Positions 40,219-40,305 of a stretch of 61,071 nt of DNA are shown piece after piece (position 1 is the first letter of the stretch; every line of letters starts with the position of its first letter). Source of the stretch: a virus (Duplodnaviria; Heunggongvirae; Uroviricota; Caudoviricetes); the IMG/VR virus record IMGVR_UViG_2778261463_000006, positions 1-61,071 of that record, one strand, 5' to 3'. A program made the translations under genes and the position numbers. The notes below the pieces were generated by a model. It worked only from the letters and a program-made list of their open reading frames with translations, was not told where the DNA came from and did no database searches.

Positions 40219-40305
40219 GGGGAGTTAGTCCGTAGAGGTAGCGGGGGAGACTGTAAATCTACTGTCATTGCGACTCGGGTGGTTCGACTCCATCACTCCC
40301 CACCA
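40219..40305 (+). tRNA. tRNA-Tyr-like (anticodon GTA, type II with long variable arm; one G-A mismatch in anticodon stem)
   Basis: Acceptor GGGGAGT/ACTCCCC perfect; anticodon arm GGAGA-CTGTAAA-TCTAC; variable arm GTC-ATTGC-GAC; resembles E. coli tRNA-Tyr as recalled. Confidence 0.65.

What the first reader, a model, noticed from the sequence alone, without database searches (positions are those of the whole stretch)
40219..40305. Type II tRNA-Tyr-like gene with an anticodon-stem mismatch, plus an ileX-like tRNA
Between tRNA-Asn and tRNA-Thr lies an 87-nt tRNA-like gene with perfect acceptor stem, long variable arm and GTA anticodon, but with a G-A mismatch in the anticodon stem. From memory P1 carries Asn, Thr and Ile tRNAs only, so this may be an extra or decaying tRNA. 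A tRNA-Ile2 (CAT) resembling ileX sits at 42190-42265 upstream of ban.
Basis: partly seen in the sequence, partly recalled or inferred. Interest (0 to 1): 0.4.

Follow-up and report, generated by a model that had tools for sequence, protein, structure and literature searches.

The report
Phage tRNA-Tyr gene, one stem mismatch
This is an ordinary, already-annotated tRNA-Tyr gene that many P1-like phage-plasmids carry (the reference P1 does not); this copy has a rare single-base change that unpairs one position of the anticodon stem.

Summary
Window 40219-40305 (+) is an 87-nt class II tRNA-Tyr(GUA) gene between tRNA-Asn and tRNA-Thr, with a G28·A42 mismatch (window 40247·40261). The CAT tRNA at 42190-42265 is 76/76 identical to P1 trnI (tRNA-Ile2).

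The gene is not new. Reference P1 lacks it, but 269 of 5,426 complete E. coli genomes carry it, always on plasmids, and NCBI's annotation pipeline (PGAP) names it tRNA-Tyr. That is about 40% of the elements that have this tRNA-Thr. It belongs to a large coliphage tRNA-Tyr family (T2, T6, rV5, CC31 and others). It is 78/87 identical to T6 tRNA-Tyr, with an identical variable arm.

Covariation strongly supports the family cloverleaf. Pair 28:42 is U-A, C-G or G-C in every other allele but one. The window's G28 differs by one base from the nearest intact allele and is confined to one sublineage: 4 RefSeq plasmids and one IMG/VR contig.

Tyr codons are not enriched here, whereas ACA, AUA, AGA and UCA are enriched 2-2.7-fold. 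The likeliest role is therefore topping up tRNA-Tyr during lytic growth against defence nucleases that deplete it (Septu, retron-Eco7). The mismatch is probably a tolerated or mildly harmful polymorphism. Early decay or adaptive stem-shortening cannot be excluded. Interest is low.

The parts
39454..39481 (+). Bivalent C1 repressor operator Obanab (Op72ab), which overlaps the P1ban/P2ban promoters. It marks the start of the C1-controlled ban operon that contains the tRNA genes.
   Evidence: The 28-nt operator annotated in P1 AF234172 is present without change in the window.
40139..40213 (+). tRNA-Asn(GUU), in the first slot of the cassette.
   Evidence: ARAGORN. Rfam 75.5 bits. It differs from the P1 allele by compensated stem changes.
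40219..40305 (+). tRNA-Tyr(GUA), class II, with CCA encoded. This is the finding. It sits in the middle slot of the cassette.
   Evidence: ARAGORN. Rfam 35.1 bits. Family homology. Covariation. PGAP annotates an identical copy as tRNA-Tyr.
40247..40247 (+). G28, the derived U-to-G substitution that creates the G28·A42 mismatch.
   Evidence: This is the only difference from the nearest intact allele (L010-L012). The partner A42 is at window 40261.
40253..40255 (+). The anticodon GTA, inside the loop CTGTAAA. The loop is identical to that of E. coli tyrT/tyrV.
40263..40277 (+). Long variable region UGUCAUUGCGACUCG. It is identical to that of T6 tRNA-Tyr and keeps the GUC|A site where Septu EcB88 cuts.
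   Evidence: PMC13096335.
40310..40385 (+). tRNA-Thr(UGU), in the third slot of the cassette.
   Evidence: ARAGORN. Rfam 72.5 bits. 74/76 identical to the P1 copy.
42190..42265 (+). tRNA-Ile2 (CAU, ileX-like), upstream of ban.
   Evidence: 76/76 identical to P1 trnI. PGAP names the identical copy tRNA-Ile. It has C4-G69 and C5-G68.

Best explanation
Window 40219-40305 is a genuine gene for a class II tRNA-Tyr(GUA) of the widespread coliphage tRNA-Tyr family (T2/T6, rV5, CC31, FelixO1-like). It occupies the exchangeable middle slot of an Asn-X-Thr tRNA cassette. The cassette lies in the C1-repressed ban operon of a P1-like phage-plasmid.

Inferred mechanism: when C1 repression is lifted, the tRNA is transcribed together with its neighbours. 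It is released by RNase P and 3' trimming, and CCA is already encoded. The host TyrRS then charges it, since G1-C72, A73, G34-U35-A36 and the long variable arm are all intact. It adds to the Tyr-tRNA pool during lytic growth.

The element's Tyr codon usage is not raised, whereas the codons served by its other tRNAs are. The most likely benefit is therefore insurance against host defence nucleases that deplete tRNA-Tyr (PtuAB of Septu and retron-Eco7), acting by dosage, as shown for the close homologue in T6.

This copy carries a derived U28-to-G substitution that turns the U28-A42 pair into G·A. It is a rare polymorphism of a single lineage. It weakens the anticodon stem and is most likely tolerated or mildly deleterious, not inactivating.
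For: Shown by tools:
- Gene and structure.
- Family membership: 1,530 phage records match. The gene is 78/87 identical to T6 tRNA-Tyr, with an identical variable region.
- Family cloverleaf: 98.7% of cells are paired, 13 pairs change on both sides, and 0 of 500 shuffles reach the observed values.
- Pair 28:42 is UA (13), CG (6) or GC (4) among 25 distinct sequences and is broken only in the window allele and one other. Among 211 copies, only 7 have any unpaired position in the anticodon stem.
- The window allele differs from the intact allele by one base. It occurs in 4 RefSeq plasmids and in IMG/VR locus L029, with flanks 99.2-99.5% identical. It is therefore inherited, not a sequencing error.
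- The gene is on plasmids in 269 of 5,426 E. coli genomes, against 680 genomes that have the neighbouring tRNA-Thr.
- The C1 operator is conserved exactly upstream.
- Tyr codons: 30.1 versus 27.7 per 1000 (p = 0.24). ACA, AUA, AGA and UCA are 1.9-2.7-fold enriched.
- Cloverleaf energy falls from -27.8 to -23.1 kcal/mol, close to T2's natural -24.6.
- Rfam score is 35.1 bits, against 43.5 for the intact allele, 29.9 for rV5 and below 29 for T2.

From the literature:
- T6 tRNA-Tyr is expressed and rescues T6 from Septu EcB88 when its dosage is raised. Septu cuts at C48 of the variable arm (PMC13096335).
- T5-type tRNA-Tyr rescues from retron-Eco7 PtuAB (PMC11555353).
- A PtuAB suppressor screen of 245 coliphage tRNAs enriched only tRNA-Tyr(GUA) (PMC12445682).
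- E. coli Tyr identity rests on A73 and U35, plus G1-C72 (PMC9976931).
Against: Nothing here shows expression, processing or charging of this allele. An internal 28:42 mismatch is otherwise absent from the lytic-phage members, which suggests purifying selection against it. About 60% of related elements do without the gene, so it is dispensable. The variable arm keeps the GUC|A cleavage site, so any protection would depend on dosage, and the strength of the ban promoter relative to the strong T5 tRNA promoter is unknown. A terminator-like hairpin (39644-39673, the dicF-like region) lies between Pban and the tRNAs. The E. coli codon baseline is a single 49-kb sample.
Confidence: 0.6

Rival explanations
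1. The gene is a pseudogene in the making. It is dispensable in P1-like elements, and the U28G change is the first inactivating hit. The tRNA misfolds or is poorly modified or decoded, and it will be lost, as it has been in P1, P7 and D6.
For: Reference P1, D6 and about 60% of related elements lack the gene. A second, independent broken allele (ACAGA/UCUAC) occurs in the same phage-plasmid context. No lytic-phage copy has a broken 28:42 pair. The mismatch costs about 4.7 kcal/mol and 8.4 Rfam bits. With G28, the predicted minimum-energy fold switches to a non-cloverleaf in which D-arm GUAGA pairs with UCUAC.
Against: There is only one substitution. All identity elements and every other stem are intact. 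The allele has persisted across plasmids whose flanks have diverged by 0.5-0.8%. Its stability and model score are no worse than those of T2 (T6's gene is one base from T2's; T6 is the member shown to be expressed) or rV5. Minimum-energy folding also misses the cloverleaf for T2, so it is not diagnostic. P1's own tRNA-Ile2 carries a fixed G27·A43.
Confidence: 0.2
2. The mismatch is adaptive stem-shortening. The G·A, on top of the family's loss of the host CAG/CUG motif, makes the tRNA a poorer substrate for a nuclease that cuts the anticodon stem (an OLD-type Toprim enzyme). Published P2-OLD-resistant phage tRNA-Thr genes combine the same two features: an altered CNG motif and a shortened anticodon stem.
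For: PMC12445682 reports that P2-OLD cuts tRNAs with paired CNG motifs at 28-30 and 40-42 plus A37, and that resistance needs both a motif change and loss of a stem pair. Host tyrT has CAG/CUG plus A37, whereas the phage-plasmid family has UAG/CUA. Two independent alleles disrupt the top of the stem. P1 tRNA-Ile2 has a fixed G27·A43.
Against: The allele is rare (about 1-2% of copies) and confined to one sublineage. In the published cases the lost pair is the terminal 27:43, not the internal 28:42. No nuclease that targets the anticodon stem of tRNA-Tyr is documented in what was read; the known tRNA-Tyr nuclease cuts the variable arm. The window's own tRNA-Thr(UGU) keeps the full CNG motif and a 5-bp stem, so this cassette shows no general OLD-evasion signature.
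Confidence: 0.08
3. The gene supplies extra tRNA for codon-usage compensation: the phage's late genes need more Tyr decoding than the host provides.
For: This is the classical explanation for phage tRNAs. It fits the other tRNAs of this cassette: ACA is 2.7-fold, AUA 2.7-fold, AGA 2.5-fold and UCA 1.9-fold enriched.
Against: Tyr codons are not enriched: UAU is 1.19-fold, UAC 0.95-fold, and the total is 30.1 versus 27.7 per 1000 (p = 0.24). E. coli already has three tRNA-Tyr genes (my own knowledge; two were seen).
Confidence: 0.1

Closest known systems
tRNA-Tyr(GUA) of T-even phages T6 and T2 (a counter-measure to Septu EcB88; PMC13096335)
   Same: Same sequence family: 78/87 identical to T6. 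The acceptor stem, D arm, anticodon loop, 15-nt variable region and T loop are identical. It has the same two extra nucleotides in the 8-9 connector and sits in a compact tRNA cluster.
   Different: The anticodon stem sequence differs (GUGGA/UUCAU in T6 and T2, all paired), whereas the window has an unpaired 28:42. The host element is a temperate phage-plasmid in which the tRNAs are under C1 repression, not a lytic phage with the SegB-driven amplification described for T6.
tRNA-Tyr of T5 and SP15 (retron-Eco7 PtuAB evasion; PMC11555353)
   Same: Same anticodon and same proposed role. BLAST detects it as a more distant relative, at about 82% identity over positions 7-87.
   Different: T5-type tRNAs have a distinctive variable loop reported to resist cleavage and are driven by a very strong promoter. 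The window's variable arm is the cleavable T6 type.
E. coli tyrT/tyrV tRNA-Tyr
   Same: Class II architecture, G1-C72, A73, an identical anticodon loop CUGUAAA, and a GUC..GAC variable stem.
   Different: The host connector at positions 8-9 is 2 nt, against 4 nt here. The host has a 3-bp D stem with an 11-nt loop. The host anticodon stem GCAGA/UCUGC carries the paired CNG motif. Rfam scores are 53.4 versus 35.1 bits.
P2-OLD-resistant phage tRNA-Thr(UGU) with a shortened anticodon stem (PMC12445682)
   Same: A phage tRNA whose anticodon stem has lost a base pair and whose CNG motif is altered relative to the host isoacceptor.
   Different: It is a different isoacceptor. The published loss is at 27:43 and is shown to be functional; here the break is at 28:42 and is untested.
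P1 trnI (tRNA-Ile2, ileX-like)
   Same: The CAT tRNA at 42190-42265 is 76/76 identical to it.
   Different: None.

Membership tests
Bacterial class II tRNA-Tyr | Cloverleaf with 7-bp acceptor, D, anticodon and T stems, and the conserved U8, A14, G18-G19 and T-loop UUCGA nucleotides | tested here: met
   Rfam alignment and direct reading. All stems are paired except 28:42. One deviation is shared by the whole phage family: two extra nucleotides after U8-A9.
Bacterial class II tRNA-Tyr | Anticodon GUA in a 7-nt loop with U33 and A37 | tested here: met
   The loop is CUGUAAA, identical to E. coli tyrT/tyrV.
Bacterial class II tRNA-Tyr | Long variable arm | tested here: met
   The variable region is 15 nt with a GUC/GAC stem, invariant in the family.
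Bacterial class II tRNA-Tyr | TyrRS identity elements A73, U35 and G1-C72 (PMC9976931) | tested here: met
   All are present in the sequence.
Bacterial class II tRNA-Tyr | Aminoacylation with tyrosine and use in translation | not testable with these tools
   This needs charging assays or tRNA-seq. The only evidence is indirect, from T6 and T5 homologues.
Coliphage tRNA-Tyr family (T2/T6/rV5/CC31 type) | High sequence identity over the full length, including the variable arm and the 4-5-nt connector | tested here: met
   87-93% identity to hundreds of phage copies. Alignment A1. T6 comparison.
Coliphage tRNA-Tyr family (T2/T6/rV5/CC31 type) | Fully paired 5-bp anticodon stem maintained by compensatory change | tested here: not met
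   The window has G28·A42, whereas 204 of 211 copies are fully paired. The deviation is a single base from an intact allele, so descent from the family is not in doubt.
tRNA pseudogene | Multiple disrupted stems or lost conserved nucleotides, and a model score below that of functional relatives | tested here: not met
   There is one mismatch only. The score of 35.1 bits is above the gathering score and above rV5 (29.9) and T2 (below 29).
tRNA pseudogene | No mature transcript | not testable with these tools
   No expression data are available.
Anti-defence (nuclease-countering) phage tRNA | Same anticodon as a host tRNA that a defence nuclease depletes | tested here: met
   The anticodon is GUA. 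Host tRNA-Tyr is the target of PtuAB of retron-Eco7 and Septu EcB88.
Anti-defence (nuclease-countering) phage tRNA | Sequence change at the nuclease cleavage site that confers resistance | tested here: not met
   The variable arm is identical to that of T6, which Septu cuts at C48. Any effect would be through dosage.
Anti-defence (nuclease-countering) phage tRNA | Not explained by codon usage | tested here: met
   Tyr codons are not enriched (p = 0.24), whereas ACA, AUA, AGA and UCA are.
Anti-defence (nuclease-countering) phage tRNA | Rescue of infection or induction on a defence-carrying host | not testable with these tools
   This requires an experiment.
tRNA-Ile2 (lysidine-dependent, ileX type), for 42190-42265 | CAU anticodon with the TilS determinants C4-G69 and C5-G68, and no C27-G43 (the TmcA determinant) | tested here: met
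   The sequence parse shows C4-G69, C5-G68 and G27·A43. The determinants come from PMC2500205. It is identical to P1 trnI, and PGAP names the identical copy tRNA-Ile.

The most novel reading that the evidence does not exclude
The broken 28:42 pair, and the independent ACAGA/UCUAC allele, may be selected rather than decay. On this reading, phage-plasmid tRNA-Tyr genes are following the two-step route shown for P2-OLD-resistant phage tRNA-Thr: first loss of the paired CNG motif, then shortening of the anticodon stem. The result would be escape from a nuclease, not yet described, that amputates the anticodon arm of tRNA-Tyr.
Probability: 0.07. Interest if true: 0.55.

Novelty: already known. Interest (0 to 1): 0.15.

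Why it matters
It matters little in itself. The gene is annotated in RefSeq, and close homologues have been studied experimentally. The useful results are as follows.
- The reference P1 tRNA set under-represents the P1-like pan-genome. The Asn-X-Thr cassette has swappable slots: Tyr, Ser or empty in the middle, and Asn or Arg in the first.
- Codon usage separates the cassette's tRNAs into codon-compensating ones (Thr-UGU, Ile2, and Arg-UCU and Ser-UGA in relatives) and ones it does not explain (clearly Tyr; largely Asn, whose AAU is 1.34-fold raised). This fits the recent anti-defence view of phage tRNAs.
- The G28 and U28 alleles form a natural single-nucleotide pair for testing how much anticodon-stem integrity matters for phage tRNA function or for nuclease evasion.

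Tried and rejected
- Minimum-free-energy folding as a test of function. The G28 allele folds into a non-cloverleaf, but so does the T2 tRNA, so the result is not diagnostic. I evaluated the energy of the cloverleaf itself instead.
- Counting Tyr-positive plasmids from the 321-nt query. The '633 records at 80% coverage or more' is inflated, because the Asn and Tyr 3' ends resemble each other. I used a query centred on Tyr instead.
- Codon-usage compensation for Tyr. Rejected.
- A remnant of tRNA-Ser(UGA) in the window downstream of tRNA-Thr. None was found. Relatives carry Ser right after the segment that equals window 40702-40800, but the window and P1 have unrelated sequence there.
- A sigma-70 consensus scan of 39300-42700 found nothing, not even the annotated Pban promoters. 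It therefore says nothing about promoters.
- Supplementary tables of PMC12445682, to see whether this family was among the PtuAB rescuers or whether tRNA-Tyr is a P2-OLD substrate. They are not held.
- Recombination as the origin of the window allele. A GGAGA/UCUCU allele exists in one metagenome contig, but a single point mutation from the L010-type allele is more parsimonious.

Full report
**Observation.** ARAGORN finds four tRNA genes on the + strand:
- tRNA-Asn(gtt) at 40139-40213
- tRNA-Tyr(gta) at 40219-40305
- tRNA-Thr(tgt) at 40310-40385
- a CAT tRNA at 42190-42265

Rfam's tRNA model matches 40219-40302 at 35.1 bits (gathering score 29). Its alignment marks a single non-standard pair, in the anticodon stem.

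Read directly, the gene has these features:
- a perfect 7-bp acceptor stem (GGGGAGU/ACUCCCC), discriminator A73 and an encoded CCA;
- a D arm CCGU-AGAGGUA-GCGG;
- an anticodon arm GGAGA-CUGUAAA-UCUAC;
- a 15-nt variable region with a GUC/GAC stem;
- a T arm GGUGG-UUCGACU-CCAUC.

G28 (window 40247) faces A42 (window 40261).

**What the window is.** It contains the C4 antisense RNA, its a1/b1 targets and a sok-like RNA. It aligns at 96-97% identity with phage P1 on both sides of the tRNA cluster. P1's bivalent C1 operator Obanab is present without change at 39454-39481. The tRNAs therefore lie in the C1-controlled ban operon of a P1-like phage-plasmid. That Obanab controls ban comes from the P1 GenBank annotation. 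Between tRNA-Thr and tRNA-Ile2, P1's tciABC genes are replaced by a small membrane ORF and an SPFH lipoprotein gene. The same arrangement occurs in phage vB_EcoM-Ro157c2YLVW and in plasmid pCDF6_3.

**Is the tRNA-Tyr extra?** Relative to the P1 reference it is: P1 reads Asn-AT-Thr. Relative to P1-like elements in general it is not.
- The gene is annotated tRNA-Tyr in NC_050153.
- It is present in 244 PLSDB plasmids.
- It is present in 269 of 5,426 complete E. coli genomes, always on plasmids, where PGAP names it tRNA-Tyr.
- The neighbouring tRNA-Thr region is found in 680 genomes, so roughly 40% of such elements carry Tyr.

The cassette is modular. N4-like phages have Asn-Ser(UGA)-Thr with the same CCA-AATT junctions. 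Some plasmids have Arg(UCU) in place of Asn, with an identical acceptor stem and T arm. Many have an additional Ser(UGA) downstream. The Tyr indel is bounded by CCAAT and CCAAAT.

**Family.** The 87 nt match 1,530 phage records, spread over T-even (T2, RB51), Karamvirus (CC31), Vequintavirus (rV5), FelixO1-like and T5-like phages. The T6 copy is 78/87 identical, with an identical variable region.

An alignment of 25 distinct sequences gives 98.7% paired cells and 13 pairs with changes on both sides. None of 500 shuffles reaches the observed values, and there is a sharp drop when partners are slid. The family is therefore under selection for a cloverleaf.

Every member has two (CC31 type: three) extra nucleotides between U8-A9 and the D stem. 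This probably explains the low model scores across the family: rV5 scores 29.9 bits, T2 falls below 29, and the host tyrT scores 53.4. It probably also explains why some annotators call these genes 'Pseudo-GTA' or 'OTHER'.

**The mismatch.** Pair 28:42 is U-A (13), C-G (6) or G-C (4) in the distinct sequences. It is broken only in the window allele and one other. I then pulled 211 copies from reference loci, IMG/VR and metagenomes, with about 40 different stem sequences. Only 7 copies have any unpaired stem position: the window allele (2 copies), ACAGA/UCUAC (3) and a 27:43 C·U allele (2).

The window allele differs by exactly one base (U28 to G) from the allele in L010-L012. The identical allele occurs in four RefSeq plasmids (pCDF6_3 and three pig isolates) and in one IMG/VR contig. 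Their flanks are 99.2-99.5% identical to the window. So this is an inherited substitution of a single lineage, rare overall (about 1-2% of copies), and not a sequencing error.

In nearest-neighbour terms it costs 4.7 kcal/mol (-27.8 to -23.1), which leaves the cloverleaf about as stable as T2's natural one (-24.6). It costs 8.4 Rfam bits (43.5 to 35.1). For comparison, P1's own tRNA-Ile2 has a fixed G27·A43 in all 30 copies held, where E. coli ileX (from memory) has G27·U43.

| Codons | Result |
|---|---|
| Tyr (UAU + UAC) | 30.1 vs 27.7 per 1000, p = 0.24 |
| ACA | 2.7-fold enriched |
| AUA | 2.7-fold enriched |
| AGA | 2.5-fold enriched |
| UCA | 1.9-fold enriched |

Thr(UGU), Ile2 and, in relatives, Arg(UCU) and Ser(UGA) therefore fit codon compensation. 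Tyr does not.

Published work offers an alternative:
- Retron-Eco7 PtuAB depletes host tRNA-Tyr, and T5-type tRNA-Tyr restores infection (PMC11555353).
- Septu EcB88 cuts tRNA-Tyr at C48/A49 of the variable arm. T6 tRNA-Tyr is expressed, is itself cut at C48, and rescues when its dosage rises (PMC13096335).
- A PtuAB suppressor screen of 245 coliphage tRNAs enriched only tRNA-Tyr(GUA) (PMC12445682).

The window's variable arm equals T6's, so protection by dosage rather than by resistance is the best-supported inference. The E. coli Tyr identity elements A73, U35 and G1-C72 (PMC9976931) are all present, so charging by the host TyrRS is expected. It was not shown.

**Rival readings of the mismatch.**
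- Incipient decay fits the gene's dispensability and the second broken allele. Against it stand the otherwise intact sequence and the allele's persistence.
- Adaptive stem-shortening is suggested by PMC12445682. P2-OLD cuts anticodon stems that carry paired CNG motifs at 28-30 and 40-42, and resistant phage tRNA-Thr genes combine a motif change with loss of a stem pair. Host tyrT has CAG/CUG and the phage-plasmid family has UAG/CUA. However, the allele is rare. The published loss is at 27:43, not 28:42. No nuclease that targets the anticodon stem of tRNA-Tyr is documented in what I read. The window's own tRNA-Thr also keeps the full motif.

**The second item.** The tRNA at 42190-42265 is 76/76 identical to P1 trnI, which is annotated tRNA-Ile2 at 89% identity to ileX. 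It has the TilS determinants C4-G69 and C5-G68 (PMC2500205). PGAP names the identical copy tRNA-Ile. AUA codons are 2.7-fold enriched. It is simply the known P1 gene.

**Verdict.** But the gene is a known, widely distributed and annotated phage-plasmid tRNA-Tyr. The mismatch is a rare single-nucleotide polymorphism whose consequence is untested. Interest is low.

Noticed in passing
window 40386-41092 (+): The 700 nt between tRNA-Thr and the next gene is packed with structured RNA-like modules. There are three long hairpins (40386-40476, 40604-40716, 40888-40972) with folding z-scores of -5.3 to -6.0. Each has an apical T-arm-like GGG(G/U)UC(G/A)(A/U)AUCCC, and two of them are paralogous. A STnc100-like element follows (40964-41084; RF02076 at 38.3 bits, below the gathering score of 47). 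It is closed by UGCGGUG/CACCGCA, which covaries to UGUGGUG/CACCACA in relatives, and it ends in a U-run. The reference P1 annotates minus-strand ORFs plp and upl across this stretch, with plp even overlapping tRNA-Thr. PGAP calls no CDS there. These may be stable RNAs or processing signals of the ban operon rather than genes.
   Followed up: partly
L005:1540-1616 and L006:1541-1617, compared with window 40139-40213: In some phage-plasmids the first cassette slot holds tRNA-Arg(UCU) instead of tRNA-Asn(GUU). The acceptor stem is identical in L005 and one base different in L006; T arm and discriminator G73 are identical, and only the D loop and anticodon arm differ. This looks like an identity switch by swapping the inner part of the tRNA.
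   Followed up: partly
L110:401-650 (N4-like phage), compared with window 40139-40385: N4-like phages carry the same cassette, with the same CCA-AATT junctions and a near-identical tRNA-Asn. Their middle slot holds a class II tRNA-Ser(UGA) where the window has Tyr and P1 has nothing. The slot behaves as an exchangeable module across unrelated phage groups.
   Followed up: partly
window 42190-42265 and 30 related copies: P1-type tRNA-Ile2 has a fixed G27·A43 mismatch at the top of the anticodon stem, where E. coli ileX (sequence recalled from memory; not checked against a record) has G27·U43. Rfam flags it as a non-standard pair.
   Followed up: partly
window 40310-40385: The tRNA-Thr(UGU) anticodon stem CCUGC/GCAGG keeps the paired CNG motifs (28-30 CUG, 40-42 CAG) and A37, with a full 5-bp stem. 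PMC12445682 describes these features as the P2-OLD cleavage signature. By sequence, this phage tRNA-Thr looks OLD-sensitive rather than resistant.
   Followed up: no
L052, L078, L165 (IMG/VR and metagenome contigs): A second tRNA-Tyr allele in the same phage-plasmid junction context has ACAGA/UCUAC, which gives A27·C43 and C28·A42 (two adjacent mismatches). ACAGA/UCUGU exists fully paired in other metagenomic copies, so this may be a recombinant with its breakpoint in the anticodon loop.
   Followed up: partly
window 41118-42162 (+): P1's tciA/tciB/tciC are replaced by a 78-aa membrane ORF (41118-41354) and a 275-aa SPFH-domain lipoprotein (41335-42162). The same replacement is seen in Ro157c2YLVW and pCDF6_3.
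   Followed up: no
window 39644-39673 (+): A strong terminator-like hairpin with a U-run ends the dicF-like region. It lies between the C1-controlled Pban promoters and the tRNA cluster, so tRNA expression from Pban needs read-through or another promoter.
   Followed up: no
L007, L014, L023 and others (CC31-type copies): ARAGORN fails to call the CC31-type tRNA-Tyr, which has a 5-nt connector. Rfam's gathering score misses the T2 copy. GenBank records name family members Tyr, 'Pseudo-GTA', 'OTHER' or nothing. The family is annotated inconsistently because of its unusual 8-9 connector.
   Followed up: partly
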